Positions 15,856 through 61,040 of a stretch of 64,000 bases of DNA are shown here, in pieces (position 1 is the stretch's first letter; every line of letters begins with the position of its first letter). Under the pieces are notes generated by a model. That model was not told where the DNA came from. It worked only from the letters and a program-made list of their open reading frames with translations, and ran no database searches. The DNA is from Selaginella moellendorffii (lineage: Eukaryota; Plantae; Lycopodiophyta): contig NW_003314261.1 in assembly GCF_000143415.4 (NCBI RefSeq), forward strand, positions 2,429,266 to 2,493,265. The letters run 5' to 3'. The translations under genes and the position numbers were made by a program.

Positions 15856-18567
15856 TTACCAGTAATCTCCGCACGAGCAAGATCCATCTACGAAGTGGTG
15901 AAACCGGTGTGTGTCTCTCACCACGATCTCTTTGTTCACTATTTTGGATATAAACTTGGTTGCGTTGTGACAGTCCTCGCAGACTCGAAGGTTTTTCATC
16001 ACTCTCACCGTGTCAGTGGAAGAGCTCATCACTCCCAGAGCGATGGCGAGCCTCTCGCTGTGCTGGCACAACAGCCGCTCCTTCTCGGCCTCGTCCACCT
16101 TTCTCAGAACAAGCCTCGTGTCCGGGACGTAGCCGATCTCTCGAATCTCCGCGTGAAGCCGCTCGAGCTCCCGGTAAATCTCCTCGCTCCTGGGATGAGA
16201 CCGATCACCTGCGACGAACTCGTGGACCCGGCTCTTGATCTCGATCCAGCTCTTCCCGGCCTCCTTCCTCAGTCCTCTCGACTCCATCTCGGTTCTAACT
16301 TCCGCGGCCTCGTCCCATTTTCCAGCTCCGGCAAGGATGTTGGACAGGACGACGTAGGCACTCTCATCACCAGGATCCAGCTCTCGGACCATCGAGTTTG
16401 CAAGCCGGCCTCGATCGACATCGCGGTACTTCCGGCAAGCTCCGAGCAGCGTCTTCCACACCAGGACAGTGGGCTTCACGTCCATGCATCGTATCAACTC
16501 CTCGGCGTCCGCGAGCCAGCCAGCCCGTCCCAGCACGTCTACGGCACAGGCGTAGTGATCTTCGCTGGGGGCGATGCCATAGCTCTGCCTCATCGACCGG
16601 AAGATCTCCCAGCCTTCGTCCGCGAGACCCCCGTGGCTGCAAGCTGACAGCACGCTCACGAAGCTCTGCTCGTCCGGCCGGGATCCCTCCTGCTGCATCC
16701 TCCAGAAGAGCTTGAGCGCTTCTCCGGCGAGCCCGTTCTGGGAGTACGCAGCGATCATCGCGTTGAAGATCACCACGTCCCGCTCCACCGCCACCTTTTC
16801 GAAGATCTCCCTGGCGGACTCGAGGCTCCCGCAGCGTCCATACATGCTGGCCAGCGCAGTGGCGACGAAGAGGTTGGACTCCATGCCCGAGTGGCGGAGG
16901 TGGTCGTGGACGATCTCTCCTTCCGTCAGTGCGGCAGCGCCAGCGCAGGCATCCAGCACCGCGACGCAGGTGATCTGGTTTGGAGCCACGCCGTGGAGAT
17001 CCATCCTCCGGAAGAAGCCGAGCGCGCGCTTGCCGTGGCCGTGCTGGGACAAGCTCGAGATGATCGCGTTCCAGGACACAACGTCGTGACGATCCTCCAT
17101 CGCTCCTCGCTGGAATGACGCTGCCGCCTCGTCGATCGCTCCACAGCTCGCGTACATCTTCACCACCGCGGTTCCAATCGCAGGCTCCGAGGCGTAGCCG
17201 CAGGAGACGATACGGGAGTGGAGCTTCCTCCCTTCGGCCATCGCTCGAGCTTCTTCCGGATTGCTGGCCACCGCCTCGAGCAAGTTGAGGTACGTCGCTC
17301 GGACCGGCGCCATTCCCTCGAGCTGCATCCTCTGGAACAGCTCGACCGCTCGTTTCATCTGACCCTTCTGCGAGCTTCCAGCGATCATCGTGTTCCAGGA
17401 CACCGCGTTGCAAGGGATCCTCTTGAAGAGATGGCGAGCTTCCTCCGGCGATCCACACCGCGTGTACATGTCCAGCAGCGCGTTCCCGAGGACGATATCT
17501 CGATCCAGCCCCTTTTCCAGCGCGCAGCCGTGGATCATCCTTCCAAATCGCAAGCTCGAGCAGCCGGTGCTGGCATTGACGAGCGTGACTTTGCTTGGCG
17601 AGATCCCCTCGTGGAGCATCCTCGCGAAGAGAAGCGCTGCCTCGGACATATGCCCGTGCTGGGCATACGCCCCCAGCATCGCGTTCCACGACACCACGTC
17701 CCTCTCGGCAGCTCGATCGAAGACCTCCTTTGCTTGATACAGATGCCCGAGCCGCGCATACGCGCTCGCGAGAGCCGTGCTCACCACAAGCGTTTGTTCC
17801 AGTCCACTCTCCCGGACAATGAAATGGATCGCCTGGGCTTGCCGAATCGTCGCGCAGACGGTGAGGGCGATGACGAGAGTGATCCTCGCGGGCCTCACGC
17901 CCTCGAGCTGCATTCTCTGGAAGAGCTCCAGCGCTATGCCCAAATCCCCGCTCTGGGCATTTGCTGCGATTGCCGCGTTCCACGATACTAAATCTCTCTC
18001 CATTTTCTCGAAGAGAAGCATCGCACTCGCAACGCAGCCGCAAGAACCATAGATGTGGAGGAGGAGATTGGCGAGCACCGATTTGCCCTTTAGGCCGCTT
18101 TCCACGATCCAGGCGTGGATGCTTCGCCCCTGCGAGAGATCCCCGAGCCTGGCGCACGCCTTGAGCACCGCGAGGAACGTGACGGCGTCGCATCGCACGC
18201 CTTCCTGCTGCATCCGGTGGAACATCCCGATCGCGCGCTTGGCCTGGCCGTGCTCTGTGTAGGCGGTGATGATCGTCGTCCAGGATGCCTCGTCCCTGAC
18301 CTCCAATCTAGAAAAGACCTCCTCGACGTCGCCCAGGCTCTCGCATTTGAGATAGAGACGCAGGAGATGGTTGCCCAGCTCCTCCTCGAGGCCGAGGCTG
18401 ACAATGCGCGCGTGGATCCTCCGGCCCTGCGAGAGCAATCGATCATCACCGGCGGCGCGAAGGAGGCGGACGAGATGCGCGGGCCTGGTCGCGCCGCTGC
18501 TACTGGAGGGCAAATCGGCCGCGGGGGCTGGCGCTGCTGCGCCAAGGCCCTGGCAGCACCGAGCCAT
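15856..18567 (-). CDS. PLS-class PPR protein with E and DYW deaminase domains (organellar C-to-U editing factor), intronless
   Basis: PLS repeats (VSWN..I), HSERLA and CEDCH zinc ligands, C-terminal CSCGDYW. Confidence 0.97.
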   Translation of the reverse strand: MARCCQGLGAAAPAPAADLPSSSSGATRPAHLVRLLRAAGDDRLLSQGRRIHARIVSLGLEEELGNHLLRLYLKCESLGDVEEVFSRLEVRDEASWTTIITAYTEHGQAKRAIGMFHRMQQEGVRCDAVTFLAVLKACARLGDLSQGRSIHAWIVESGLKGKSVLANLLLHIYGSCGCVASAMLLFEKMERDLVSWNAAIAANAQSGDLGIALELFQRMQLEGVRPARITLVIALTVCATIRQAQAIHFIVRESGLEQTLVVSTALASAYARLGHLYQAKEVFDRAAERDVVSWNAMLGAYAQHGHMSEAALLFARMLHEGISPSKVTLVNASTGCSSLRFGRMIHGCALEKGLDRDIVLGNALLDMYTRCGSPEEARHLFKRIPCNAVSWNTMIAGSSQKGQMKRAVELFQRMQLEGMAPVRATYLNLLEAVASNPEEARAMAEGRKLHSRIVSCGYASEPAIGTAVVKMYASCGAIDEAAASFQRGAMEDRHDVVSWNAIISSLSQHGHGKRALGFFRRMDLHGVAPNQITCVAVLDACAGAAALTEGEIVHDHLRHSGMESNLFVATALASMYGRCGSLESAREIFEKVAVERDVVIFNAMIAAYSQNGLAGEALKLFWRMQQEGSRPDEQSFVSVLSACSHGGLADEGWEIFRSMRQSYGIAPSEDHYACAVDVLGRAGWLADAEELIRCMDVKPTVLVWKTLLGACRKYRDVDRGRLANSMVRELDPGDESAYVVLSNILAGAGKWDEAAEVRTEMESRGLRKEAGKSWIEIKSRVHEFVAGDRSHPRSEEIYRELERLHAEIREIGYVPDTRLVLRKVDEAEKERLLCQHSERLAIALGVMSSSTDTVRVMKNLRVCEDCHNATKFISKIVNKEIVVRDTHRFHHFVDGSCSCGDYW

Positions 18568-18672
18568 AAACCCTAATTGGCGCCAAAAAATTTAAAATTT
18601 GAATTAGCCCTAAGCGTGGGGTTATATGTGGATATTGAGAATGCGGATATTCTCTCCATTGGCGATAGGACG

Positions 18673-19849: not shown

Positions 19850-20178
19850 TTTTATAACAAATTATTTATTCATTAAGAACATTGAATTATTTATATAAAT
19901 ATGTACTTTGTATCAATTTATATAATTTTAAGCTTCCGGTTCAACAACCTTCACACAGTTAGCTTCTTGAGTAGAGTCATTATCTGCTTCGTCGTCGTGT
20001 TTCACAATGCCAACATTAATTTCTAATTTATGTATGTAATTTTTTAATAGCATTGATGATTTGATGAAATACCAAAGGTTATCAATGATAGTCTGGTGCA
20101 ATGGTTTATATACTTAATATAATATAAATATAGTTTTTATTTCTTTTTAAATAAGTATAATTTTGGGTTATTTCACAC

Positions 20179-20352
20179 TGTGAGTGCATGGAATATGGAA
20201 AGGGAATACAGAAATGTGCATATCAATTAACCCAAAAACCCTAGCTTATATACAGGAGCGAGTGGTCCGGATTGAAACCAATCCGACGGCTACCAAAATC
20301 CACTACGCTAATATTAGTATACGGCATCGTAGCCGTACACTTGGCCCTCACA
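20179..20352 (-). repeat. 3' LTR (174 bp)
   Basis: TGTGAG...CTCACA inverted termini; identical by eye to 25015-25188. Confidence 0.97.
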
Positions 20353-20367
20353 TCATCCCCTCCTCTC
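20353..20367 (-). other. Polypurine tract
   Basis: Minus-strand GAGAGGAGGGGATGA directly before the 3' LTR. Confidence 0.85.
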
Positions 20368-20384: not shown

Positions 20385-23300
20385 TCAGGGTTCTCTTGTA
20401 GATGGGCCGGGATCTGGAGGAACGTCAGGAGGAGGCATCGGTGGATCTGTAGACGGTATTAACTGCTCCTGATCCCTCTGTATGAAGCGTTTTAACCGCT
20501 GCACATGCACAATCTCCGGAGGATCAGCCTGCTGAACGTCATGCCGAACCTCATAAACTTGTGGTCCAACTTGCCGCAACACCCGATACGGTCCTTTCCA
20601 CTGCGCAAGGAGCCCCTTAGATAAACCACGCACCGTAAGATGGGGAAAACGGACTAACACCAAATCATCCACTTTGTACTCCGCTGGTGGACGATGATGG
20701 GAATTGTAGCGCCGTTGTTGTCCCACTTGTACGCGGCCTAAGTGTTCAGCAGACTCTGCTCGGACAAGTGGAAGAATGCTTGTCAAATATTGATCCCATG
20801 ACCTAGCATCAGGAGCTCGTGGCAATCGCGAAGGTAAACCTAGCTCTGTTGGTAATATTGGATCATGACCATATAGAAGTTTATATGGTGAAGCACCAAC
20901 AGAACTCTGCACCCCTGTGACATAAGCATACGAAGAGACGGCAAATAACCATCCCAATCCGAATGTTGAAAGTTCACATACTTCACAATCATCCCTTTGA
21001 ATGTCCGAACGAGCCGTTCCACCAGACCGTCTGATTGTGAATGATAAGCACTCGTAAAAGTGTGGCGTATCCCCAACCGAGATGTCAAAACATGAAATAC
21101 CTCAGCCATAAATGCAGGACCATTATCCGAAAGAATCCGTTCTGGACAAGAATGCTGGAACACCACTCGATTGAGGAGGAAGTATCCAACAGCAGTTGCA
21201 GAGGCACTAGCAAGAGCACCAACTTCCACCCAACGAGTCAAGTAGTCAGAAGCAATAATAACATACTCATTGCCAGCAGTAGATCGCGGAAAAGGTCCCA
21301 TAAGATCAAACGCCACCAACTCAAACGGACGAGAAACTGCAATTGACTCCAACCGTCCTTCCGCAGCACAAGGGGGAGTATTACGAGCTTGGCACCAAAC
21401 GCAGCTACGCACATACCGGATAATATCACGTCGCATCTCTGGCCAATAGAAAGATCTGCGCAACTTCTCGGTGATACGACGGTGTCCCATATGCCCACCT
21501 AGAATAGGAGAATCATGGTAGGCATGGAGAAACCGCGGAATAAACACCGAAGGCACCACCAGCCGTAAATGAGCATCAGGATCCGTCCCCACAAAATAAA
21601 GAAGGCCATCTTCAAGGCGATATTGAGAATGTAAATGCCGAAAAGGCAAGTCATCAGCAAGTGATGCAGGATTCTCAAACCCATCTCGAAGCCTTCGAAT
21701 CCACGGCTCAATCTTTTGAGCCTCGCGAACCTCATCCAGAGAAGGTAGATCTTGCTCTACGCCCTGTGGACACTGAACGTCAAGGACAGCAACCGCCGAC
21801 GGCACAGAATCCTCATCTAGAAAATCCACAGATGCTGGAACAACAGGTTCATCAGAAACATGAGAAGTGAGTGGAGAAGGAAGAGGAGCTCGAGAAAGGG
21901 CATCAGCATCAGCCATAGAACTCCCTGGGCGATGAACAACATCGAAATCATATATCTGAAGCTTCAAAGCCCATCGAGCCGTACGACCAACCAGGTTCTT
22001 CCGCTTCAATAATGAAGTAACAGCAGCATGGTCACCTTCAAGTAACGTCCGAGAACCATGTAGATAGGCATGAAGTTTCTCGAAACCCCAGACTGCTGCT
22101 AAACACTCTTTCTCCGTCGTGGAGTAGTTCATCTCCGCTGGTTGTAATGTACGGCTTATGTATGCAATGGGATGGCGCTGACCAGGCACACTCGAGCTCT
22201 CTTGCATCAACACACCTCCAAGACCAATGTCAGAAGCATCCACGCGCAAAATAAAAGGTCGAGTGTAGTCAGGATATGCCAAAACCGGAGGAGTCGTCAA
22301 TAGCTCTTTGAGATTCACGAACGCCCGCTCACAATCGGGAGACCAGATGAAAGATGACGTTGATGACTTCAGCAACGCTCGCAATGGTAAAGTGCGATCG
22401 GAAAGATGATCCACAAAACGACCGAGATACTGCACCTTACCCAAAAAGCGCTGCACATCATTCACACACTTCGGAGTAGGGAACTTTAGAACAGCCACAA
22501 GTTTGTCAGGATCAACTTGCAAACCCTCACGAGAAATACGGTACCCAAGATAAGTTGTGTCCTTGGACCCAAACACACACTTCGACCGCTTCAGCTTTAA
22601 ACCAACGTCGCGTAGCCGATCCAACACTTTACAAACATCACGAACATGCTCCTCCCACGTCCCCTCCGAGTGGATCAAGACATCATCAATGAAGTCAGCC
22701 GTCACCTCTGGCATATCGCAAAGAACCTCGTCCATCATTCGCTGAAAAGTTGCTGGAGCATTGTTCAAACCAAACGGCATCACCAAAAACTCGTACAAAC
22801 CAAATGGTGTACGAAAAGCAGTCTTAGGAATATCGTCTTCAGCCATCGGTACTTGCCAATACCCAGAAGCAAGATCTAGCTTGGTGAACCAACGACTTCG
22901 CCCCAGACGATCCAAGAGATCAGCAGTGTGAGGAAGAGGGTACACGTCCGGGATCGTCACTTCATTTAATGGACGATAGTCGATGCAGAAACGAATACTC
23001 CCATCAGGCTTCGTCACAAGATGAGGTTCACATGCCCAAGGACTCCGCGACTTCCGAATAACACCCTTCTCCAACATCTCCTTGACGTTTGCACGTAAAA
23101 TCTTGATCTCCTTGGGTGACCGACGACGAACAGGAACCTTGATTGGACGAGCATCCCCGGTTGGAATGGGATGACGTGTGGCAATCTTGGCCCCAGACGA
23201 TAGGTCAAATTCAAAGAGATCAGAATACTCCTTCATGAGCTGATCAACAGCTGCAACACAAAGATCATCGGAGGGATCGGAAAAGGGAAGAGCAGAACAA

Positions 23301-23872
23301 GATGGAAACACAAGAGGAAATAATGGGGGAACAAAAGTAATGGAAGCAGAGGTAGAAGTAGAGGGACGAAGAGGTACAGAAGTGAGAGGAATGGATGAAA
23401 CATAAGGAAGTATGAGACAAGGGGGAAAAGCCTCAAAGTCACACTTGGCATGATTGTGCTGCAACCAATCCATACCAAGAATGAGGTCAAAAGCTTGACT
23501 CGGCACCACCCGCAACGACTGCAACTCAAGCTCGAGATCGCCCACACGCACAACCAGGTCCGCCTCATCTCGTGCACATGCATGTGTACGGCCGTTGCCA
23601 TAAAGAATGAAAACTGGATCCGCCGCACGACGCAAGTGTAGACGACAACGTGTGGCAACAGGTCGAGCAATAGAAGATAAACTCGAACCTGTATCAACCA
23701 ACACGGAGAGAAGAATAGGAGACCTCTTGTTATAAAAACGAGCTTGGAAAGTAAACACTGGATGAACTGGTGCCGAGTGAACCCCTTGATGATACTCCCG
23801 AAAGAAAGATGGAGGGGTCACTAACTTATTCGCGCAAGGTCCCTCCATTACTCGCGCGACTCCTCGTTTCCC
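20385..23872 (-). CDS. pol: Pol polyprotein (protease, RT, RNase H, integrase), interrupted by a 1-nt frameshift near 20930
   Basis: LVDTGS protease; FTKLDLASGYWQ, MPFGL.NAP and FIDDVLI in RT; VDASD RNase H; HHCC and DLMGP/SDNG/VER integrase; GPY motif lies in the shifted frame 20385-20957. Confidence 0.93.
23809..23872 (-). promoter_or_regulatory. -1 programmed ribosomal frameshift signal (G GGA AAC plus H-type pseudoknot)
   Basis: Slippery heptamer in the gag frame 23872-23866; 6-nt spacer; 9-bp stem 1; 8-bp stem 2; pol is in the -1 frame. Confidence 0.88.
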
Positions 23873-24780
23873 GAATGCACCTCGGTATCCAAACCTTCCA
23901 CCGCAGCAGCACCAACGGGACGTTGCTGACGCCAAGGTCTCCACCCAGGAAATGGAGGTCGCCAATCCGGAAAGCGCCGACAACGCCGATAAGTATGACC
24001 AACTTCATCACACGCCCAGCAACGAATGTCACGGCCACGACCACGTCCTCGCCCTTGTCCTTGGACTCGAGTAGCAGCAGCATCAACCTCCATGGGAACA
24101 GGACCATCATTCATAGGAAGTGGAGCTGAAGGACGTGTAGCAAGAAGTGGAAGAGGCGACGTCTCATAACGTTGTGCCAAGCGAAGAGCATCGTCAAGAG
24201 TGGCAGGAGCAAGTGCATGCACAAGTCCGACAAGATCTTGACGAAGTGCTGGCCACAGCATTCCTAGCTTGATCCGCTCCGACATATTTGGCTCCGCACG
24301 AAGCAAAAGACTTCGGAAACGAACGCCAAATTGCATCACCGACTCAGATGGCCCTTGGCGAAGACGATGCAATTGTTGGAAGGCATCATCACAATCGTCG
24401 GCGTGTCCGAAGGCGCGTTTGAAGACGTCCGGAAGAACACTCCAATCGCCACGAGTAGCTGCGCTCAATCCATTGTACCACTGCAATGCCGTCCCTTGAA
24501 GACATGTGGGGAACTCACGCAAACGCCGAGCATCATCCCAAGAATGATATGTGGCAATCACCGTGAAGTGATCGAACCAATGGTACACATCATCCCCAGG
24601 ATTCCCACGAAAGAACTCCGGCCGAACGCGAGGATTGGCACCAAAAGCAGGAGGAGTTGTACCATGTGCCGTGAACGCCGCCATCAACTGAGTTTGGTTG
24701 TTCAATTGCAGGCGCATAGCATCAAGCAATTGAACCAACTGCTGCTCTAGAGTCAAAGGAGGAGATTGCGGATCGGCCAT
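23848..24780 (-). CDS. gag: Gag polyprotein
   Basis: Capsid-like PEFFRG..W, LRQGPSESV motif, PVPMEVD, CCHC zinc knuckle CWACDEVGHTYRRC. Confidence 0.93.
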   Translation of the reverse strand: MADPQSPPLTLEQQLVQLLDAMRLQLNNQTQLMAAFTAHGTTPPAFGANPRVRPEFFRGNPGDDVYHWFDHFTVIATYHSWDDARRLREFPTCLQGTALQWYNGLSAATRGDWSVLPDVFKRAFGHADDCDDAFQQLHRLRQGPSESVMQFGVRFRSLLLRAEPNMSERIKLGMLWPALRQDLVGLVHALAPATLDDALRLAQRYETSPLPLLATRPSAPLPMNDGPVPMEVDAAATRVQGQGRGRGRGRDIRCWACDEVGHTYRRCRRFPDWRPPFPGWRPWRQQRPVGAAAVEGLDTEVHSGNEESRE

Positions 24781-24997
24781 GAAAATGAATGAGAAAGAAA
24801 GAGCAAAAGAAGAGAAATGACAAAAAAGCTAGAAAGAAATGGTAGATCTAGACAATGCAAAAAGCTAGATCTAAACCAAAATCCTGAAAGGAAAGAACAA
24901 AAGAAAGGAAATGGAAAAAGCTAGATCTAGACAATGCAAAAGCTAGATCTAAACCAAAATCCCAAATCCAAGCACTCTCCAGGGACAATCAAAGGTG

Positions 24998-25013
24998 CCC
25001 CTCACCTCCACCA
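24998..25013 (-). other. Primer binding site, tRNA-Ala-like
   Basis: Minus-strand TGGTGGAGGTGAGGGG 1 nt after the 5' LTR; complementary to a ...CUCCACCA tRNA 3' end. Confidence 0.7.
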
Positions 25014-25014
25014 A

Positions 25015-25188
25015 TGTGAGTGCATGGAATATGGAAAGGGAATACAGAAATGTGCATATCAATTAACCCAAAAACCCTAGCTTATATACAGGAGCGAGTG
25101 GTCCGGATTGAAACCAATCCGACGGCTACCAAAATCCACTACGCTAATATTAGTATACGGCATCGTAGCCGTACACTTGGCCCTCACA
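25015..25188 (-). repeat. 5' LTR (174 bp)
   Basis: Identical copy of 20179-20352; minus-strand TATATAA inside. Confidence 0.97.
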
Positions 25189-25731
25189 ACACTTATTTAA
25201 TGTCTTCCTTTTTTATATGATTAAGTCTTTTAAATACACAAGAACTATTATTTACTCAGTAGTAATAATCAACTAAATAACAATTAAATTATATAAAATG
25301 TATCAGATAAATATATTTCATAATGATATTTTCTTACTCAAATATAATTTCAATAAAGTCTACCAAAAATAATAGATTTAGCAGCATTTGGGATTTTGGA
25401 ATGATATTTGTTTAATATATTTAATATATACTTATCAAAATCATAACATTCTATGAAAATTATAATGCCACCATCTGCAATGACTTGTAAAACAATGTTT
25501 GCTATAATTTTAACTTTGATAACATATTAATTTCTTTTGTTTTAGTATAATACAAAATATATATTTGGATGTACTTGATGAAGTACATACAAAAATCATG
25601 TTTGGTAAATTATAAACAAAATAATTTCCTATAGAATTTATTTTTGATTAATCAATAATTCTAATCAGTTTTAGAGAGCTTGAAATTTGGAAAAAGAATT
25701 TTAGTTATTATCATATTTTATAGTAATTTTA

Positions 25732-28700
25732 TCACAAAGTTCTATAAGTTTCTAAACAAAACTTTATCATGTCTTTAAGCTCGTTGTCTGGGTTTCTGAA
25801 AAGATCTACCTGTCTTGTTTCGTTGTAGGTGATTAACATCATCCGCACCATTTCAAAATTAAACCTCTTGATGTTTTTAGGTAGATCATTCTCATGAGTG
25901 ATGAAGTAGCTTTCATTGAGTTCCCTTTTGGTTTTCTCAAGCAAGCTTTGCAAATATACTAATGCATCTTCTTCAGTTGCACCTGGATGTTCTTTCATGT
26001 AGCAAGAAACTCCTTGTGTTGGTTGTCCAAGTTTCATCTCAATCTAAAAGAAAAAGAAACTTTTAATACTTACAACCCAAAATCTATGAAAGAGAACCTT
26101 ATATGTTTGGATGTCATTGCAGAGCCTAGAGATGATTCGATCAAGCTTGAGAGGCCTACTATCATAAATAGTGTTTAATATTTCTTCCGTTAGAGGCTCC
26201 CCACAAAATAATATGCTCATAAGTACATGGACCCAAGTGGAGATGCTAACTTCAGCATTCTCCATGTACTCCTCAAAACTTGGTATGTATCCTTCAATTT
26301 TCCAACGAGCATCAGCAATCTCGGATTTTATAAGTTTTGTGTACTGCAAAGATTAATGTAAACAACAACCCATATAAAAAAAATGTGATACTTACAATTC
26401 CAGACAGGTATTTGCAAATAAATTCTGGAGACAGATTTTTATGTATTTTGGATGCTGCCTCGGTCATAACAAGAACGGTATTATAGAATTCTTGAAAGGG
26501 AATCCTATATTCTAGAGGAAGTTCATGCGACAAAGAGATATCCCACCTGAAAGACCAAAAGAGGAAGCAAAGAGTTATTAAAACTTCTAAAAGTTGATGC
26601 ATCTAACCTTTCAATCACATTTTGGAGACGATCTAGCTCTTCAATGCTTGTTGCACAGTCCATAAGATCATCAAATAAAGTGTTCAGACAACAAGCCTTT
26701 GAGAAGAAAACTCTCAACTGGGCAAATTCTTGCTCATGGAAAGTTGCACAGATCACATAGTAAATATAAGGGAGCATATCAATATTCGCTGTTAATCTGG
26801 TAGATGGTACATCTTCGAAGCGCGATGAATGCCACCAACTAAATGGAAAAACACACCAAGTCAAACATTAGAATTAGCCACTTGGCTAAGAAATTCTTTT
26901 TGCTTACTTGACCAATTCTGTCAGTTCCGAAGGTTGATACGATTGACATTGTTGAGCATACCGATTTGCAAGCTCTAGAAACACTTTGTTATTCACTAGA
27001 GGCAACCTGTAAAGAGATAAACAAAGTTATGGGATTTTAGAGGTTTATATGGATACTTGCCGATAAATAGTCTTAGCAATCCAAAGATCATCCATGCCAT
27101 AGTGCTTGATATAAGCATTATTATAAATCCTCGGCAAGCAGTCATGGAATGGATTTGCTAGCTCAAATGCCACCTGTAGAAACAACAAACACATGAGTTT
27201 CCAAGCTATCTGAATCTCATTACCTCTCCCATGAGGTTTTTCTTCGTTGCCCATTTATCCATGTGAGCGCTGTCAACATTCAGTAGATAATCGTGGGAGT
27301 ACTTGAAAGTCTTTGTAAGAATCGCTTCGTTCGGGAAATCGACCTGGGAAGCCCGATGCAAGTTGAGCATTTCAGAGACCCCATGTGATAATTCGCCAAC
27401 AAAGCAGCAAAACTTGTCTCCAGGCAGCCAGAACTGGTTGAATGCATCTGTAGGGAGTTTCATACTTTAGTGAATTACAGATTCTTCCACCAAAAGACTA
27501 TTTTTACCTGGAGATACATTGTATCCATGCATCCGAAGGATACGGAATGCCATTGCTGTGTCGTCTATGTCATTGACTAAGCATGTAGATCCCCATCCGA
27601 TTCCTTCGTTTGTCCAAAAGCTGATACAAACACAAAAAGAAGAGCTTCGTAAGTATTATAAGTACCAAGGCATTGTACCTGTACACATAGTCGAGGACGG
27701 CTTTGATCTCATCTCTGAAGAAGACGTCAATCCCCAGCCGCTCAATGGTGTCGACCACCCATAAACTTTCGAAAAGATCAATGGGGTAATGGCAAGGAAC
27801 TGCAAAATAAAGTCGATTAGCGCAAAGGATTGAAGAAAACAGCCAATTTACCAGCATAGTTTTGATCTTCCATAGCATTTTGCAAGTATTGCAACGATTT
27901 CCTGTCCTTGGTCTTCAAGTAAACACATGCTGTTGACGAAGGCGAGCTCAAAAAGGATCCATCTTTAGACTGGAGCTTGAGGATCTTCTGCCAGTCGATC
28001 TCAAGGTCTTGAAGGCCTTCCAAGGAGTATAACAACGTCGTGGGAGCGGAATGGATTTTATCCAAAGGAATCCTGGGCGAACACCAAACGTCTTCAACAC
28101 ATATGTTACATGTAGAGGAACTCACTTAGCCAATTTCTTCTTGGTGGAAATCTCCAGCAGCCTTGTGAACTCTGTCTCGTACGGAATATCAAGGCCCAGC
28201 TGCTTGGCTTCGTGGAGCATCATTGGGAACGTCACCTCGAAACCTGACAAGAGATCTCCATCGTCTTGCTTGAGCTTGATCATGTTTTCACGCAAAAACT
28301 TCGTGCCTGTGATCAAGAATCAGAGGCGATTAGATGTAATAACCAGAAGATCAGAAAAGAAAAGTTGTAGAAGCACACCTTGCGCAATGCTGTTGTGCCC
28401 GATGTCCCAGGTCTTGAGCGTGACCAGGCATGAGAGCGTGGATAATACTCTGTCATAGAGTTGCAAGTGACGATCATCACCCCATGATCCATCCGGAAGT
28501 TGACTGTTGATGATCCACTCCAGGGCCTCTGGGAACTCGGGAAGAGAGGAGTCGGACTCGGACGGGATTCGAGCCACCCAGGCAGTGTCGTAAGCCGAAG
28601 GACTAATTTCCCCCTTGCCACTCGCGAGTTTCATGAGCCATCCCTTCACTTCCGCGACGAGCAGCGAGGTTTCTCTGGTATCAAGCTCCTCGACGCGATC

Positions 28701-29088
28701 GCCAGGGACGTGGAGAATGCCTTGGTATGGCAGCTGCTTCTTCTTTTGCCGCTTCTCCTGTGAACAAGTAGGAAGAAATCAGCTCCACTCAAGCTCGAAA
28801 CGACGGTGCTTGGACTTACTGGAGCCTCAGCTAGCTTCGTGTTTTCCAATGTCGGTGAGTTGGAAGCACAACAGCTAATAGTGATCGAGGAGGCTGCATT
28901 TAAGAGGCCGAGGTTAGTGCAAAGCCTAAACGACAACTGCTCCGCTTACTTGAGTTTTTCCGGAATCGCTTCGCGTGTGCGTTGCTCTTGAGATTAGTCC
29001 CATTGATGAAAACTCCAGATAACTGGCCGGACTTGAGGCTTCCGCTGATGCCGGTCTGTTGAAAGCTGCTGAACAAAACCTTTGCCAT
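25732..29088 (-). CDS. MDS: Bifunctional class II/class I diterpene synthase, miltiradiene synthase-like, multi-exon
   Basis: Transit peptide [10 protein letters not shown]; [21 protein letters not shown] and PCHYP (Tyr/His dyad of normal-CPP enzymes), DIDD, DDLMD, NDIQTYK(I)E. Identity with SmMDS is recalled from memory, not searched. Confidence 0.9.
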
Positions 29089-29368
29089 CGCAAAAGCTTT
29101 GCCTTCCCCTGCCTAGGTGAGACTCTTCCTGTCTGTCCCCTAGATTATAAGCTCTTCCGGTCGTGCTCTCACTGCGGCCTTGATTCTGTCCCTTTAAAAG
29201 GAACGAGCCCGTGCAGCTCGTAACCACTACGGAAGTTTGACTGTCGGTTGCGATTTCAAAGGCGTCTCCTGTAAGAACGGTCGTTACTGATCGAAGAACT
29301 ACAGAGTGAAGCACGGGCTGACCTTTGGAGAATAAAGTTACTTCTTCACCATGAGGCTCGATACGGAA

Positions 29369-30730: not shown

Positions 30731-31354
30731 GATCAGTGCGATCGCCGACAGAACAAAAACGTCAACGGCTGACGGCCAGTGAAGGTTCCCGCCGGCCGTC
30801 AGTGACGGGGCCGCATCTTCGTGGATATACCCGTTGACTCGTTTTGACCGGTGCGACAAGCCAAAAGAAAATTCTGCCGCGTTCTTGGGCTGCGGTTCTC
30901 ACACTCCCTGGGAAGTAAAATATTGAGAGAATTTATCCCGCGAGCTTCGGGGAAGGAGCGCGATTTTTCTGCATTTCCTAGCTGCCATTTACAAGACTCC
31001 AACGCGATAAGTGACAAATGCGTCTACTACGTACCTTTGAGAAAAGAGAAACGCGCTTCTCGCAGGAGATCGCTCGCCACTCGCCAGGTGGATGATGCAG
31101 GCTGATCCTTCGAAGCGGCTTATAACTAGGCAATCACTCCGTCCATCATCAGCTGCACGCTCACAATCACGCAAGAGAGCTTAGAATTCACAGGAGAGGA
31201 AAAAAAGAGGGATTTTTCTTGCTTGTCCAAGCAAGAACTTAGCGTGTGTACCTGGAGTGATCGATTCTCTCCCTGGATGCCTTCTCGCAAAGTGAGCGTC
31301 GTCTCAACGTTGTATGACGTTCGCGTCCTGCACAGACTGATCGACAAGTTTAGC

Positions 31355-32437
31355 ATGGATCCGCACCAGTACAGCAAGGCGAGCAGCAACTTATCATCAT
31401 CGCCCGAGATCGCGAATTTCCCACCGCAGCCACAATCGCAGTCGCAGTCGAGCGAGGACGACAGCTTCCCCTTCTACCGCTTGGACATCGGGAGGAAAAC
31501 GCGGCAGCAGCGTCGATCAAAGCGATTGTTTGAGTGCCAAGTTCTCCAGCAGCAGCCGCCGCCGCTGCAGGACCACCACCTCTACCAAGTCTCCAGCCCC
31601 GACGAGGAGGCAACCAACGACGACAGCTTCCAGAGTTCCAAGCGGCGGAAGAAGTTCGTGGGAGTGAGGCAAAGATCTTCCGGTAGGTGGGTTGCTGAAA
31701 TCAAAGACACCGCTCAGAAAGTCCGACTGTGGCTTGGAACTTACGATAATGCAGAAGATGCCGCTCGCGCTTACGACGAGGCCGCCAGCTTGCTGCGCGG
31801 AGCGAACTCCAGGACCAACTTTGCGTCCGCCGGCACGCCTTTCTCTCCGTGCCAAGAGGAGGAGCTCGACGATCACACTCCGGCAATGCTGGAGGCGATT
31901 TCCATCTACAACAGCAACCAGGAGTTTACGGTCAGTTCAGGAAATCCTCCACTGACTTCACTGTCAATGACTAAAGTACCTGAGCTCATCGTCGACTGCA
32001 CAAAGTCGTCGTCGTCGTCGATGCTCGAGAATTGCATCAGCTCCATGAGCATCGCTCCTCAGGAGGAAGAGCTCATCCCGAGTCCGCTCCCGCCGGACGT
32101 GGTAGCAGCAGCAGCCTGCTTCCAAGGATTTTTCTCGGTGGCTCAGCAGGAAACTGGAAGCTTGGTGAGCAAGGACGCGGACGACGATGCGATGATACAG
32201 ATCAGACGCAGGAAGTACGAGCGGCAGTCATCGGCATCACTGTATGCAATGATCGGAGCACACGAACTGCAAGCAACACTGGCAGGAACGTCACCGCTGG
32301 TGGACAACAGCAGCATCGACACGACTTGGAGCGTGACTGACAGTAGCAATCTCAATCTTTTCGCTACTCTTCCGGACGAGGTTGACGAGGTAATGGTCAG
32401 GCACGAATTACCGGAGGACAGCCTTTGGGACTTTTGA
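31355..32437 (+). CDS. AP2/ERF transcription factor, ERN1/RAP2.11-like, intronless
   Basis: [50 protein letters not shown]; C-terminal [13 protein letters not shown] motif. Confidence 0.9.
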
Positions 32438-49824: not shown

Positions 49825-51142
49825 CACCGTTTGATTGAATACGGTAAATGCCCAGAAATGTCATCTGGAAGATGCAAAGTATATCTTTGACTCTAAGTTT
49901 CTCCAAGACACTATGTCACACACCATCATGTTGGTCGCGTATGGAAGCCACAAGAAACCCGATAAGGCAAGACGGATATTTGAGAAGAGATGTAGTTCTC
50001 TGGAAAAGCATTATTCGCGCACTTGCCGGAAGCAGGCATCTGGAAGACGTAAAAGCCATGTTTGGGAAAATGCCTAGGCCTGACGTGGTGTCTTGATTCA
50101 AGTGTAAGCGGCGAACGGGCGGCTGAAAGAAGCCAAGGAGTACTTTCACAAGATGCCCGACAGGAACGTTGTTTCCTGGTCGAGATCCCAATCCCTTCCT
50201 GTGGCAGCGGCAATGATCCGCCGCAGCAAAATTTCCCTTCGCCCTTCTTGATGGCGAGGAATGGGACTTCCTCTGCGGCAAAAGAAGATGTTTGATCGAA
50301 TGCTTACGTCCAAGTAGCGAAGATTCATGGAGCACAAGAAATGTTTGATGCGATGCCGGAGAAGACCGAGGCGAGCTGGAATTTTTTTTCTCGCTAGCTT
50401 GTCATGTGGATCAAGGAAAGAACTTGTTCGGTAAAACTCTCGTTTCTCGGCTTTCGCTTTGCTCAGAGCAGCGAGGAGGAGGAAGCTAGAAACGCGAGCA
50501 AATGCCGGGCCGCAAACACGATGATCACGGCCTACTCGATGAATGGAAACTTGTGAGAGGCTGCCGCTCCAGAGCTCTTCCAAGCCATGGCTCACAAGGT
50601 GGTGGTGGCTTGAACGCTGATGACACGGCCTACGAATGCTCGCATAGCCGGTAATGAAAGCATTCCACGATATCAAGTCCCTGTGGCAAACATTTTTTGG
50701 GCTCGATCCATATCGCCCACCTTTCAAAACGCGCGAAAGATCTTTGGCAAGCGTCCATGAAAGCTTACTCAAATAAACAAGTTGCCAGAGATTTCCGCGA
50801 TAATTACACGCTCCCGCAAAACGAAACAGAGAGCTGGAACAAGCAAAGTTTACTTTTCCGCCAGACATGGTTTCCAGAAACATTATGATGCTACTATTGG
50901 AAAATGGATCTGGACAGGCCGGGGATTGAACCCAAGACCTCCTACACCAGGTGCTTGCCCTGGTTGTGTATGTGTGCAGCTTAGTTCTAACAGCTACGTC
51001 CAAGGCGGTCGTCTCGGAGAGGCAGAGTATATCTTCCAGAGCTCTCCAGAGATTGACAAGTTCTCATGAAACACTGCAACTCTTGAGAGGAATTGAGTTT
51101 GCATCTTCCAGATGACCTTGCTGGGCATTTTATCAAACGGTG
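49825..51142 (+). pseudogene. Degraded inverted paralog of the PPR gene at 54925-57291
   Basis: Collinear peptides (HLEDAK.IFD, AYGSH, IIRALAG, KMPRPDVVS*, NTMITAYSMNGNL*, IFQSSPEIDKFS*) with stops, deletions and an internal inversion. Confidence 0.88.
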
Positions 51143-51657
51143 GTAGGAACTTCGATCATCCTCTTGGCCTGGAGAAGGATCAAACGCTTGGGTTACTGGC
51201 AAGCCAATGAGCATCAAGTATTTGCTCAATGGTATGCTCCTTATGTCATGGCTGGATCGTGCTGGGGTCGAGGATAGAATCAATCAGGCCTCTCCCAGAT
51301 CATTAACGTACCCAACTTTGTCAAAAGATCCCGAGATGTAACTGCAGGTGCACTAAAGTCGATAGCATTGCTGATATTGAGGGAAGATTCCTAGTGACGC
51401 AGATGAAGTATGCAAGAGCATCAAAGTCGATAGCATTGGACACTGTCGAGGAAGAAAAAATGAAAGTGACAATTACCAGACGGTAGTTTTCACGGGAGAG
51501 GCCTTTGAAACACCGTTGCAGTTGGTTGCCACTGCAGGACTTCGCCATGAAAGCAACAGGGAGAACGCACTGCTACTTAATACACGGGAGGAAGTGCTTA
51601 TAATCACGGGGCTGACGTGAAGTGTCTCGGGCAAGCAGGAAAGGCAAAGTTTCTGCC

Positions 51658-54600
51658 ATGTCAAAGTTTCTGCTCTGCAGCTTCCAACACACTGGCATCA
51701 GTGGAATCTTCAAGTCCGGCCAGTTATTTGGAAGCAATCTCAAGACCAACGCACAAATCCGGAAAGGAAGCTTAAGTAAGTTGGGCATTTTTCTTTCAAG
51801 TTTCGCACTAAACTGGCCTATTAGTGCAGCTCCCTCGATTAGGATTACCTGCTGTGCTTCCAACCCATTGAACTTTGGAAACACGAAGCCTGCTGAGGCT
51901 CCAGTAAGTCGAAGCACCATCTTTCCAAGCTTGTGGAGCTCATTTCTTCCTACTTGTTCGCAGGAGAAGCGGCAAAGGAAGCAACAGCCATACCAAGGCA
52001 TTCTTCACGTCCCTGACGATCGCATCGAGGAGCTTGATTACAGAGAAACGTCGTTGCTCGTCGAGGAGGTAAAGGGATGGCAGATGAAACTCGCGAGTGG
52101 CAAGGGGGAAATCAGTCCTTCGGCTTACGACACTGCTTGGGTGGCTCGAATAGCGTCCGAGTGCGACTCCTCCCTTCCCGAGTTCCCGGAGGCCCTGGAG
52201 TGGATCATCAACAGTCAACTTCCTGATGGATCATGGGGTGATGATCGTCACTTGCAACTCTATGACAGAGTATTATCCACGCTCTCATGCCTGGTCACGC
52301 TCAAGACCTGGGACATCGGGCACAACAGCATTGCGCAAGGTGTGCTTCTACAACTTTTCTTTTCTGATCTTCTGGTTATTACATCTAATCGCCTCTGATT
52401 CTTGATCACAGGCACGAAGTTTTTGCGTGAAAACATGATCAAGCTCAAGCAAGACGATGGAGATCTCTTGTCAGGTTTCGAGGTGACGTTCCCAATGATG
52501 CTCCACGAAGCCAAGAAGCTGGGCCTTGATCTTCCGCACGAGACAGAGTTCACAAGGCTGCTGGAGATTTCCACCAAGAAGAAATTGGCCAAGTATGTGT
52601 TGAAGTTGTTTGGGGATTCCTTTGGATAAACTCCATTCCGCTCCCACGACGTTGCTATACTCTTTGGAAGGCCTTCAAGACCTTGAGATCGACTGGCAGG
52701 AGATCCTCAAGCTCCAGTCTAAAGATGGATCCTTTTTGAGCTCGCCTTCGTCAACAGCATGTGTTTACTTGAAGACCAAGGACAGGAAATCGTTGCAATA
52801 TGCTATGCAAGTTCAAAACTATGCTGGTAAATTGGCTGTCTTCTTCAACCCTTCGTGCTAATCGACTTTATTTTTGCAGTTCCTTGTCATTACCCCATTG
52901 ATCTTTTCGAAAGTTTATGGGTGGTCGACACCATTGAGCGGCTGGGGATTGACGTCTTCTTCAGAGATGAGATCAAAGCCGTCCTCGACTACGTGTACAG
53001 GTACAATGCCTTGGTACTTATAATACTTACGAAGCTCTTCTTTTTGTGTTTGTATCAGCTTTTGGACTAACGAAGGAATCGGATGGGGATCTACATGCTT
53101 AGTCAATGACATAGACGACACAGCAATGGCATTCCGTATCCTTCGAATGCATGGATACAATGTATCTCCAGGTAAAAATAGTTTTGTGGTGGAAGAATCT
53201 GTAATTCACTAAAGTATGAAACTCCCTACAGATGCATTTGACCAGTTCTGGCTGCCTAGAGACAAGTTTTGCTGCTTTGTTGGCGAATTGTCACACGGGG
53301 TCTCTGAAATGCTCAACTTGCATCGGGCTTCCCAGGTTGATTTCCCAAACGAAACGATTCTTACAAAGACTTTCAAGTACTCCCACGATTATCTGCTGAA
53401 CGTTGAGACCGCTCACATGGATAAATGGGGCAATGAAGAAAAACCTCATGGGAGAAGTAATGAGATTCAGGTAGCTTGGAAACTTATGTGTCTGTTGTTT
53501 CTACAGGTGATATTCGAGCTAGCAAATCCATTCCATGACTGCTTGCCAAGGATTTATAATAATGCTTATATCAAGCACTATGGAATAGATGATCCTTGGA
53601 TTGGTAAGATTATTTATCGGTAAGTGACATTTATATAAACCCTTGTTTATCTATCTCTCACCATCTCTCTTTTGTTTAAGGTTGCCTCTAGTGAATAACA
53701 AAGTGTTACTAGAGCTTGCAAATTGGTATTCTCAACAATGTCAATCCTATCAATCTTCTGAGCTAATAGAATTGACCAAGTAAGCTAAAACAAATTTCCT
53801 AGACTAATGAATGATTCTAATATACGAATTTGATGTGTTTTTTATTTAGCTGGTGTCATTCATTGCACTTTGAATATATCCTGTCTACCAGATCAAAAGA
53901 AAATATCAATATGGTCCCTTATATTTATTATTTAATTTATGGAACTTAGAATTTAGCCAGTTGAGAATTTTCTTTACAAAGGCATGTTGTATGGGCATGT
54001 TAATTGATGATATCCTAGATAGTGCAACAAGCATTGAAGTGATCAATTCTGTCCAAAATGTGATTGAAAGGTTGTATGCATTAACATTTTAAAAATTTTA
54101 CTGACACTTTCACTTATCCAGGTGGGATATATCTCTATCGCAAAAACTTCCTCTAAAATATAAGATCCATGTTCAAGAATTATATAATACCATTCTTGTT
54201 ATGACTGAAACAGCTTCCAAAATACATCAAATTTTATCTTCAAAATTCATCCACAATTATCTTTCAAAAATTGTAAGCATTTCTACTTTATTTTCCTATG
54301 ACTTCATAGTGTTGTTTTTTATACTAGTACACGGATCTTATAAAATCCAGAATTTCTGCTCACTGCAGAATTCAAGGATATATTCCAAGTTTTAAAGAAT
54401 ACATGCAAAATGCTGAAGTTAGCATTTCCATTGGGAGTCCTGTACTTATGAGTATATTATTTTGTGGTGAGCCTCTGACAGAAGAGCTATTAAACACTAT
54501 TCATGATAGCAAGCCTCTCAAACTTAATAATATAATATTTAGGCTTTGCAATGATAATATAAAAGGTAATATCTATATTTAAATTTATATACAGATCACT

Positions 54601-54903
54601 AAATGTGTAATTTTTTTATTGATATGAAGCATGGACAACTAGCACAAGGAGTTTGGTGTTATCATCCAGGTGAAACTGAAGAAGATGCTTTATCATATCT
54701 ACAAAGTTTACTTGAGAAAAACAAAAAATAACTCAATGAAAGTTATTTCATCACTCATGACAAAGATTTACCCAAAAATGTCAAAAAGTGAAATTTTGAG
54801 ATGGTGCGGATGGCTAATCACCTACAATAAAACAAGACATGAGGATTTAGTATTGAAAAAATTACAAAGTTTTCTACATCAGCTAAAAACATTAGAAGGT
54901 TAA
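51658..54903 (+). pseudogene. Diterpene synthase pseudogene (inverted paralog of MDS)
   Basis: Same exon layout as MDS. Intron after KKKLAK is collapsed and lacks its AG (about 52593-52614); extra G at DKWG (about 53430); indels and stops in 3' exons; DIDD and DDILD still recognisable. Confidence 0.9.
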
Positions 54904-57291: not shown

Positions 57292-58199
57292 TGCATAGCA
57301 TGGTATAAAGAATATACACAAAATATTCATGTTGCTGTTAATTTTTCGTTTGTAGTTAAGCAACATATTTCTTTGTCTTGTTTAGATTCAGTTGGAAAAA
57401 TATTTTGTTCAAAGACAAGCTCCAACTCCTTGAGGTTGGCAGCAGCATGATCTTGAAGTTCTTCCACTTAGATCTCGCACAGAGGCCAGAGCCTCCAAAG
57501 GTTTTCCAGCCCTTACTGCTATGGGAAAACACTTCCAACCTTCACCTATTGGAAGATTCGACTTGATCCTCTCCCCTCCACATAGCCACTGCAACAATGC
57601 TCATTAGGTTCCAAGTTAAGTGAGTCCGGTCCATGAGCAATCCAGCCACCTTGGCAATGAGCTCTTCATCCCCAAACCATGACACGCTCTCCACATAATC
57701 CGTGGTCATGGGGATCACTTTGGAGTCACAGACACTTGCAAGCTGATCAAACTTACTTCGATTATTACTTCAAATATTGCTTTGATTCCTTGGAAGAGTA
57801 GTGCTCTCCTATGGAACTCTCAGGAGGAATCAAAGTAATCTTCCCAAGTTTGAGCAGTAAAGATCTTCTTGCAAGTAAGAAATACATGTACCTTTCAAGC
57901 CTAGTAAACTGGCCACTCCTGATCTGTGTTAGTGCATTCATCACGATTTCCTGATCCCACAGTGTAGACTTGTTCATCAACAGCTTTCCCCATGAACAAT
58001 GACATCAGGCCTTTGTTCAGTTTTGAATTCCTCTTCCAAAATCTATCTGCAGCTGATTTTCCACCTTGCTTGTGAGCTGCATGCTTGTATTGAGCTCGTT
58101 ATATGCTGCAATCTTGGAAATTAGCAGCTATTTGCTGTTTGAAAACAAATAGTTTTTTTAAGTTTCTATAAATTATAACCAGCCTTTTCCAATTGAAAA

Positions 58200-59990: not shown

Positions 59991-61040
59991 CTAGAGTTGG
60001 AAGGTCCCTGATTTTTCTGGAGGAGGGATCCACCCAATTCCATGGTATCTAGCACTCAACCATCCCCATTCTGCGTTTGCGGCCATCCACACCTCTACCC
60101 CATTCACATAATCCATGACGCCTTGCTTCCTGGCAAGCCCACTTGAAATGATCTCCTGCTTTGTCCCGATGAACTCCTTCTCCAAATCCTCCACCATGCT
60201 CGCCAACATGGCAATCGCCTCGTTCAAACCACACTTGTGAATGCTGGCGAGAATGGGCACGGCGTTGAGGTAGTTCCCTTTCGCCCACTCCTTCCTGAAC
60301 GAGATCAAGTCATTGTGGAGCGCAATGTGGTGCGTCCCAATCTCCTCAACCTTGCGTATGAGAGGATGATCCAGCACGCCACGCTCTTCCAGCCCAAGTT
60401 GCAGTAAACCATCAAGCATAGCAAAGCAAGGCGCAACACCAGATGTGATCTCTCTCAGCCACATGTACGTGTCCAGGTTGGGAACGATTTGCTTGTGAAG
60501 CCAGTTCGATTCAATCTCAAACATGTCGAGCACCTTGGTCATAGAATTCATGAATCGGCCGGATTTGTCCACTAGATGGAGGGACAGTTCTTTCAAAACC
60601 TCAGATAACATCTTCACTTGCCTCAGCAGCTCCTGATTCTTGACCAGAAGTGCGGCCTCGTCAAATCTTCCCTTGAAAACCATCTTGTATGCGGTTGCCA
60701 CGTTCCTCATGTCCGACGAAGAGATCTCAGGGTTATCCAGAATGTCATCTGCAAGAAAGAGCCAAGCGATGAACTTTGCAACGGGAACAATCTTCTCGTA
60801 TGAAATGCTCGGGTATGCATAAGCTGCGAGCAATCCAAGCCTGCTCTCTCGAATAAACACAGATTTCTCGCTTCCAGGTTGCAACTTCAGAAACTCGTCA
60901 CACCACACATTGATCTCAGCGTCGGCCTTTGCATCATACAGCGGATTCAGCGCTGGAGAGGCCAGAAGTTTATTACTTGCTGGTGGAATGGAGTAGCTTT
61001 TCTCCGCTGCAAAAATGCTCACAATGGATAGAATAGCCAT
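59991..61040 (-). CDS. Microbial terpene synthase-like protein (MTPSL, SmMTPSL1-like), intronless, about 349 aa
   Basis: Single alpha domain with DDILD, LREITSG (pyrophosphate-sensor Arg), NDLISFRKE (NSE), and W....RY. Confidence 0.93.
   Translation of the reverse strand: MAILSIVSIFAAEKSYSIPPASNKLLASPALNPLYDAKADAEINVWCDEFLKLQPGSEKSVFIRESRLGLLAAYAYPSISYEKIVPVAKFIAWLFLADDILDNPEISSSDMRNVATAYKMVFKGRFDEAALLVKNQELLRQVKMLSEVLKELSLHLVDKSGRFMNSMTKVLDMFEIESNWLHKQIVPNLDTYMWLREITSGVAPCFAMLDGLLQLGLEERGVLDHPLIRKVEEIGTHHIALHNDLISFRKEWAKGNYLNAVPILASIHKCGLNEAIAMLASMVEDLEKEFIGTKQEIISSGLARKQGVMDYVNGVEVWMAANAEWGWLSARYHGIGWIPPPEKSGTFQL

What the first reader, a model, noticed from the sequence alone, without database searches (positions are those of the whole stretch)
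23809..23872. Complete retrovirus-style -1 frameshift signal (slippery heptamer plus H-type pseudoknot) in a plant gypsy element
Seen: on the minus strand gag reads TCG GGA AAC, giving the heptamer G GGA AAC (XXXYYYZ) in the correct phase, and pol is exactly the -1 frame (TTC GGG AAA CGA). A 6-nt spacer GAGGAG follows. Stem 1 is UCGCGCGAG (23859-23851) paired with CUUGCGCGA (23838-23830), 9 bp with one G-U. The loop segment AUGGAGGG (23848-23841) pairs perfectly with CCCUCCAU (23816-23809). The gag UAA stop lies inside the structure. Known: this architecture drives -1 frameshifting in retroviruses and other RNA viruses, whereas many plant LTR elements use one gag-pol ORF or other strategies. 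Inference: a functional recoding element sets the Gag:Gag-Pol ratio.
Basis: partly seen in the sequence, partly recalled or inferred. Interest (0 to 1): 0.8.

Follow-up and report, generated by a model that had tools for sequence, protein, structure and literature searches.

The report
Frameshift pseudoknot in a spikemoss retrotransposon
A young jumping gene, most likely from a spikemoss, carries a complete retrovirus-style "slip back one base" signal between its shell-protein and enzyme genes, which likely sets the ratio of the two products; the signal is textbook in viruses and animals, but the papers searched do not describe it in a plant retrotransposon.

Summary
G_GGA_AAC is the only canonical slippery heptamer in the 157-nt gag/pol overlap and is in phase. 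A 6-nt spacer and an H-type pseudoknot follow (9 bp + 8 bp). None of 1,500 shuffles match the pseudoknot, and it ranks 1 of 447 heptamer sites in the window. It lies in a 5,010-bp Ty3/gypsy element with identical 174-bp LTRs, a 4-bp TSD and no chromodomain. This fits the Selgy lineage of Selaginella, already tabulated with overlapping gag/pol. Family contigs show no indel at 3% or more across the junction, so the -1 layout is family-wide. No compensatory change was seen, junction RNA coverage was negligible, and this copy's integrase is broken. Best reading: programmed -1 frameshifting (0.8), untested. It is a new member of a known kind and was not found described for plant retrotransposons in 8 searches.

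The parts
25189..25192 (-). target-site duplication, 5' copy (GTGT)
25015..25188 (-). 5' LTR, 174 bp, TGTGAG...CTCACA, identical to the 3' LTR
24996..25013 (-). primer-binding site starting TGG, 1 nt after the LTR; tRNA-Ala-like by recall only
   Evidence: tRNA identity not tested against a tRNA set
23848..24780 (-). gag, 310 aa, Retrotrans_gag domain, one CCHC knuckle at 24021-23980, ends in UAA
23866..23872 (-). slippery heptamer G_GGA_AAC, in phase; only canonical heptamer in the 157-nt overlap
23860..23865 (-). 6-nt spacer GAGGAG
23851..23859 (-). stem 1, 5' arm; its first 8 nt (UCGCGCGA) are a palindrome
23846..23850 (-). UAAUG: gag stop overlapping a pol-frame AUG (7th pol residue after the slip, 51 codons before the protease DTG)
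23841..23848 (-). stem 2, 5' arm; core 6 bp are 23846-23841; 23847 varies U>C in 18-22% of family depth
23839..23840 (-). 2-nt interstem (AC)
23830..23838 (-). stem 1, 3' arm
23817..23829 (-). loop 3, 13 nt; holds two common family variants (23823, 23825)
23809..23816 (-). stem 2, 3' arm
20385..23866 (-). pol in the -1 frame: protease, RT, RNase H, integrase with SH3-like end, no chromodomain; frame break in integrase near 20930
20356..20367 (-). polypurine tract
20179..20352 (-). 3' LTR, 174 bp
20175..20178 (-). target-site duplication, 3' copy (GTGT)

Best explanation
This is the gag-pol junction of a young Selgy-type Ty3/gypsy retrotransposon, where an in-phase G_GGA_AAC heptamer and a predicted H-type pseudoknot likely make a minority of ribosomes slip back one base and produce Gag-Pol. 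Shown: the element, the -1 frame relation, the heptamer, the spacer and both complementary stems. Inferred: the pseudoknot folds (stem 1 of 9 bp, stem 2 with a 6-bp core extendable to 8 bp) and pauses the ribosome with GGA and AAC in the P and A sites; both tRNAs re-pair on GGG and AAA; translation continues ...HSGN-RGVARVM... into protease, RT, RNase H and integrase. Most ribosomes would unwind the structure and stop at UAA five codons later, giving a 310-aa Gag in excess. The slip would occur after Gag residue 305.
For: Geometry exact. 0 of 1,500 shuffles and rank 1 of 447 heptamer sites. Only canonical heptamer in the overlap, in phase. Rough pseudoknot energy -23.7 against -14.1 for the best nested fold of the same 51 nt (loop penalties recalled). 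No indel at 3% or more in 23770-23910 among 2,256 (X1) and 1,116 (X8) contigs laid, both runs from one sample. The five variants at 15% or more in both runs fall upstream of the heptamer (2), in loop 3 (2) and at the outer end of stem 2 (1); none fall in the heptamer, spacer or stem 1. With the stem-2 variant the pseudoknot still scores -32.7. Selgy is tabulated as GAG overlapping PROT-RT-RH-INT in 17 elements (65%). Distant Ty3/gypsy loci carry the same heptamer in phase at a -1 junction: 10 GGGAAAC and 2 AAAAAAC among 71 metagenome loci, and 6 more GGGAAAC among 44 further loci. PEG10 uses GGGAAAC plus an H-type pseudoknot (PMC13622457).
Against: No experiment. No compensatory base-pair change was seen. 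The 23847 U>C variant (18.3% of depth in X1, 22.1% in X8) breaks a stem-2 pair with no partner change listed. Five variable sites are too few to prove selection on the stems. The frequencies are contig-depth weights from one sample. Stem 1 shows decay changes up to 12.0% (X1) and 14.9% (X8). The distant loci are 40-47% identical in RT-RNase H, are kin to one another, and do not group with this element in my tree. In one search, 7 of 16 other -1 loci had no canonical heptamer, and 24 loci used a single ORF (15) or a UGA stop (9). No DNA was available for the three nearest relatives. This copy's integrase is broken.
Confidence: 0.8

Rival explanations
1. Stop-restart translation: ribosomes end Gag at UAA and restart at the overlapping AUG (UAAUG), making a free Pol that starts 51 codons before the protease active site.
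For: UAAUG is present at 23850-23846 in the pol frame. UAAUG overlaps drive reinitiation in some viruses, and the SART1 retrotransposon reinitiates using downstream RNA structure (PMC10275272 passages).
Against: The AUG reads ACG in 18-22% of family depth. No UGGGA (TURBS motif, recalled) in the 110 nt upstream. It leaves the in-phase heptamer and 6-nt spacer unexplained. The structure surrounds the stop rather than lying downstream of it. None of the 12 relatives printed with GGGAAAC or AAAAAAC shows a UAAUG at the stop. Pol is normally packaged as a Gag fusion (established knowledge).
Confidence: 0.07
2. A short intron spanning the junction removes the stop and joins gag to pol; the heptamer and stems are relics or secondary.
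For: 51 GT-AG pairs of 45-250 nt restore the frame; the best use the donor AAG|GTTTGG at 23894 with YAG acceptors at 23821, 23767 or 23758. Unchecked scan notes report small introns in other retrotransposons of this genome. Splicing sets Gag:Pol in plant copia elements (PMC5580714).
Against: That many pairs is what short motifs give. The best candidates are 43-51% A+U and match 6 of 9 donor consensus positions. Splicing does not explain the retained signal. RNA coverage was too low to test it.
Confidence: 0.05
3. The stems mainly serve genome dimerization or packaging through the palindrome UCGCGCGA, and slipping depends on the heptamer plus stem 1 as a simple hairpin.
For: The stem-1 5' arm forms a perfect 8-bp homoduplex (-13.7 kcal/mol); it is 1 of 15 perfect 8-mer palindromes in the element. 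Stem 2 tolerates a common mismatch.
Against: Position 6 nt after the heptamer is what a stimulator needs. The 6-bp G-C-rich stem-2 core has no common variant (2-5.5%). Packaging signals usually lie near the 5' end (established knowledge).
Confidence: 0.05
4. Chance: the -1 offset is a lesion in this copy and the stems are fortuitous.
For: This copy has another frame break in integrase. Stem 1 could come from duplication of one palindrome.
Against: No junction indel at 3% or more in family contigs, whereas contigs do differ by an indel at the integrase break (31 in X1, 13 in X2). 0 of 1,500 shuffles. The Selgy overlap is lineage-wide.
Confidence: 0.03

Closest known systems
Selgy lineage, non-chromovirus Ty3/gypsy of Selaginella moellendorffii (Neumann et al. 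2019, PMC6317226; passages and Additional file 5 read)
   Same: 5.0 kb, 4-bp TSD, no extra domain, gag overlapping PROT-RT-RH-INT, host genes clustering with S. moellendorffii proteins
   Different: The parts read give only 'different but overlapping frames', with no direction, slippery site or pseudoknot. Additional files 1 and 3 (element table, reference proteins) were too large to read and may bear on this.
PEG10/Edr and PNMA3 (Ma3) -1 frameshift signals of domesticated Ty3/gypsy genes (PMC13622457, PMC5009743; passages read)
   Same: PEG10: GGGAAAC plus compact H-type pseudoknot setting gag:gag-pol. Ma3: classical heptamer plus H-type pseudoknot, about 20% frameshifting.
   Different: Those are tested mammalian host genes. 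This is an untested signal in a recently mobile plant element; no sequence homology of the stems was tested.
Retroviral G_GGA_AAC/pseudoknot signals (SRV-1, FIV; names recalled) and plant-virus pseudoknots such as beet western yellows virus (PMC5009743 passages)
   Same: Heptamer, 5-9 nt spacer, H-type pseudoknot; plant ribosomes already do -1 frameshifting on viral RNA
   Different: Host-genome retrotransposon; 2-nt interstem; stems longer than the compact polerovirus pseudoknots (recalled); Rfam gave 0 matches.
Plant LTR elements of the 2003 survey (Gao et al., seen only as summarised in PMC5009743) and Tcn1
   Same: Separate gag and pol frames occur in a few plant groups; Tcn1 is overlapping in 149 elements (60%)
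   Different: In the 2003 survey both plant types had pol in +1; here it is -1 with a full signal. The frame of Tcn1 was not found in the passages read.
SART1 non-LTR retrotransposon, UAAUG stop-start (PMC10275272 passages and reference title)
   Same: UAAUG overlap between ORF1 and ORF2 with nearby structure
   Different: Here a heptamer precedes it, the AUG is polymorphic, and the element is an LTR type.

Membership tests
Ty3/gypsy LTR retrotransposon | LTRs with TG..CA ends, PBS, PPT, TSD; domain order GAG-PR-RT-RH-INT | tested here: met
Selgy | host Selaginella moellendorffii | tested here: met
   3 of 5 window proteins looked up are in the collection and cluster at 90% with proteins named S. 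moellendorffii
Selgy | 4-bp TSD (96%), length 4432-6724 bp, no chromodomain or aRH | tested here: met
   GTGT, 5,010 bp, Pfam shows no chromodomain
Selgy | GAG overlapping PROT-RT-RH-INT in a different frame | tested here: met
Selgy | PBS for tRNA-Ala (90%) | tested here: inconclusive
   PBS begins TGGTGGAGG; the match to tRNA-Ala is recalled; no tRNA gene in the window
Selgy | RT-RH-INT phylogeny groups with REXdb Selgy references | not testable with these tools
   reference FASTA too large to read; my tree had no named Selgy member
SM-Fogey (chromodomain-less Selaginella element) | single ORF, 233-bp LTR, 5-bp TSD, tRNA-Met PBS | tested here: not met
   PMC3350952 section 5
-1 programmed ribosomal frameshift signal | X_XXY_YYZ heptamer in phase within the overlap | tested here: met
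-1 programmed ribosomal frameshift signal | 3' structure 5-9 nt downstream | tested here: met
   6 nt; predicted stems beat 1,500 of 1,500 shuffles; folding itself not probed
-1 programmed ribosomal frameshift signal | structure conserved by compensatory change | tested here: inconclusive
   no compensatory change among 34 variant rows; one stem-2 pair broken in 18-22% of depth
-1 programmed ribosomal frameshift signal | measured -1 product dependent on heptamer and structure | not testable with these tools
   needs reporter, ribosome profiling or mass spectrometry
UAAUG termination-reinitiation | conserved AUG overlapping the stop | tested here: inconclusive
   present in this copy, ACG in 18-22% of family depth

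The most novel reading that the evidence does not exclude
The first -1 frameshift signal described in a plant LTR retrotransposon is also a switch. Its palindromic stem-1 arm can pair between two genomes, so dimerization would dismantle the pseudoknot and turn off Gag-Pol synthesis on RNA destined for packaging. In about four-fifths of copies the overlapping UAAUG could add a second, restart route to a free Pol.
Probability: 0.1. Interest if true: 0.75.

Novelty: new member of a known kind. Interest (0 to 1): 0.42.

Why it matters
How plant LTR retrotransposons keep Gag in excess over Pol is mostly explained by splicing or left open. The 2003 survey, as summarised in 2016, found plant elements with split frames only in +1. 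A complete -1 signal in an abundant, recently active lycophyte family would be a clean test case for -1 frameshifting on a plant genome's own element. It comes with natural variants (6-bp against 8-bp stem 2, AUG against ACG) as built-in controls. It would also give the mechanism behind the overlap already tabulated for Selgy. The mechanism itself is textbook, which caps the interest.

Tried and rejected
No whole genome is held for this window, so full-length family copies could not be aligned. Rfam: 0 matches at E up to 5. Viral contigs: no relatives with the single protein or the alignment. Gag search: 1 weak hit, 29% identity. The 50%-cluster search gave no closer relative than P0006, 53%. 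P0006, P0021 and P0014 have no named source and no DNA could be had. Their predicted proteins start 11-35 residues before the protease motif, which fits separate ORFs but does not separate mechanisms. No RNA holder listed. Two raw RNA runs, about 12% of each read, gave 33 and 52 reads over the element with junction depth 0-0.3, too little to test expression or splicing. Loose-end lines of heavily decayed copies disagreed between X1 and X8 at 23848, so I drew nothing from them. Summed contig depth was not used as a copy number, as the tool warns. Nested folding z-score was uninformative. In one search, 75 of 116 sequences were set aside (59 without a protease motif in the RT frame, 7 without RT start, 6 without a long upstream ORF, 3 at contig ends); this filter also dropped 9 of the 12 heptamer loci found. 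In one search I left out 3 of the 34 variant rows, each resting on one X4 contig and at most 0.2% of depth elsewhere. Gao et al. 2003 could not be read. SM-Fogey was rejected as the family. Earlier scan notes had nothing on this stretch.

Full report
Observation. On the minus strand gag reads ...CAT TCG GGA AAC GAG GAG TCG CGC GAG TAA, and the -1 frame reads ...FGKRGVARVMEGPC... into protease. My perfect-stem pseudoknot search scores it -35.4 kcal/mol of stacking. None of 1,500 dinucleotide shuffles reached that (mean -5.7, best -29.4), and it ranks 1 of 447 slippery heptamers in the window, the next scoring -23.7. It is the only canonical heptamer in the 157-nt overlap. With recalled loop penalties the pseudoknot comes to about -23.7 against -14.1 for the best nested fold. 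Nested folding alone is unremarkable (z 0.39), and Rfam has no match.

The element. [quoted passage not shown] Gag is 310 aa (Retrotrans_gag, one CCHC). Pol has protease, RT, RNase H and integrase with an SH3-like end and no chromodomain. The integrase frame is broken near 20930, and other family contigs differ by an indel there, so this copy is young but probably not autonomous. Three of five neighbouring proteins looked up cluster at 90% with proteins named Selaginella moellendorffii. Additional file 5 of PMC6317226 gives for Selgy: 114 elements, 4-bp TSD (96%), mean 5,044 bp, tRNA-Ala PBS (90%), GAG overlapping PROT-RT-RH-INT in 17 (65%), no extra domain. The fit is close, but phylogenetic membership could not be tested. 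SM-Fogey does not fit.

The family. 113,782 and 103,461 contigs of two runs from one sample laid on the element, with changes dominated by C>T and G>A, as expected from methylation decay (inference). On 23770-23910, 2,256 (X1) and 1,116 (X8) contigs showed no indel at 3% or more, so the -1 arrangement is family-wide. Of the 31 variant rows analysed (34 listed), 28 are C>T or G>A. Five reach 15% in both runs: 23880 and 23874 upstream of the heptamer, 23825 and 23823 in loop 3, and 23847 in stem 2. Heptamer rows stay under 8%. The 12 stem-1 rows are all decay-type, 10 at CpG, at most 14.9%. The 23847 U>C variant (18.3%, 22.1%) has no listed partner change. It trims stem 2 to a 6-bp core with a 4-nt loop 1, still scoring -32.7. 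So the core pseudoknot survives in the common variants, but covariation support is absent and the sample of variable sites is small.

The stop overlaps a pol-frame AUG (UAAUG, 23850-23846), 51 codons before the protease DTG. UAAUG overlaps drive reinitiation in some viruses, and SART1 reinitiates (PMC10275272). The same 23847 variant turns this AUG into ACG, which argues against it being essential. The stem-1 5' arm is the palindrome UCGCGCGA, able to form an 8-bp homoduplex. Splicing is formally possible: 51 frame-restoring GT-AG pairs, none compelling, and unchecked scan notes report introns in other retrotransposons of this genome. RNA data were too thin to decide.

Relatives. The nearest protein is an unnamed one at 62% over RT-RNase H; the rest of the 120 listed are 37-51%, and those with names are nearly all animal. 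In a FastTree of 163 RT-RNase H pieces the element groups with P0006 (0.944), then P0021 and P0014 (0.995); deeper nodes are weak. No DNA was available for these. Among 71 metagenome loci, 10 have GGGAAAC and 2 have AAAAAAC in phase at a -1 junction, mostly followed at once by the gag stop and a G-C-rich stem. Six more with GGGAAAC appear among 44 loci from MAG contigs, probably eukaryote contamination. Others use one ORF (15) or a UGA stop between gag and pol (9). The signal is therefore common in this broad Ty3/gypsy neighbourhood but not universal. My tree cannot say whether the plant copy inherited or re-invented it.

Mechanism. Most likely (0.8) the pseudoknot pauses the ribosome on G_GGA_AAC, both tRNAs slip to GGG_AAA, and a minority of ribosomes make Gag-Pol while the rest stop five codons later. 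Sequence layout and family conservation of frame are shown; folding, pausing and slipping are inferred. Rivals: stop-restart 0.07, splicing 0.05, dimerization-centred role 0.05, chance 0.03.

What is known. Papers seen: PMC5009743 (passages; first 300,000 of 449,034 characters held): G_GGA_AAC among the most shifty heptamers, spacers 5-9 nt, PEG10 and Ma3 signals, and in the 2003 survey the only two plant types with separate frames had pol in +1. PMC6317226 (passages, Additional file 5; files 1 and 3 unreadable). PMC5580714 and PMC12786077 (passages): plants mostly single ORF or splicing; frameshifting named as a general strategy, with no plant example in the passages seen. PMC13622457 (passages): PEG10 GGGAAAC plus pseudoknot. 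PMC2864245 (passages): no occurrence of 'frameshift'. PMC3350952 (passages, section 5): one occurrence, not about recoding. Gao 2003 not read. Eight searches (listings only except where named) showed no description of a -1 signal in Selgy or another plant LTR element; subscription journals and Repbase entries are outside this library.

Verdict. A real, well-formed signal of a known kind in a known lineage whose overlap was already tabulated. The specific signal and its plant setting appear undescribed in what I could search, and it is directly testable. Interest 0.42; new member of a known kind.

Noticed in passing
L001, L003, L004, L007-L010, L013, L049 (also L002, L006, L012 by eye), gag-pol junction: A separate group of Ty3/gypsy elements has gag and pol in one frame split by UGA, exactly 22-23 codons before the protease motif; 8 of 9 have C right after the stop and most have CAG 9-11 nt on. 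Looks like a conserved stop-readthrough signal; 11 labelled members fall in one 18-member clade with support 1.0.
   Followed up: partly
L020, L078, L084: -1 junctions with a G_GAA_AAC-like site instead of a canonical heptamer, just before the gag stop.
   Followed up: no
window 20925-20935: Frame break in integrase in a copy whose LTRs are still identical; family contigs differ by an indel here, and loose ends also cluster here.
   Followed up: partly
window 24794-24990: The leader between PBS and gag holds a partly repeated segment with four TAGATCTA palindromes; a candidate dimerization or packaging region.
   Followed up: no
window 25811-29158 and 51590-54839: A 3.3-kb segment present twice in inverted orientation, 84% identical overall and up to 98% in parts; two ORFs in it had no Pfam match.
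   Followed up: no
window 21666-21877: RNA reads from two runs pile up here on one strand with many differences and a shared loose end at 21877, suggesting a transcribed fragment of a diverged copy at another locus.
   Followed up: no
window 15856-18591, 54925-57381, 59991-61061, 31130-32437: Host genes: a PPR-DYW gene, a second PPR gene with a decayed inverted partial copy near 49846-50561, a microbial-type terpene synthase and an AP2/ERF factor.
   Followed up: partly
L072-L115: 44 eukaryote-type Ty3/gypsy loci sit in contigs of bacterial and archaeal MAGs, probably host contamination of those genomes.
   Followed up: no
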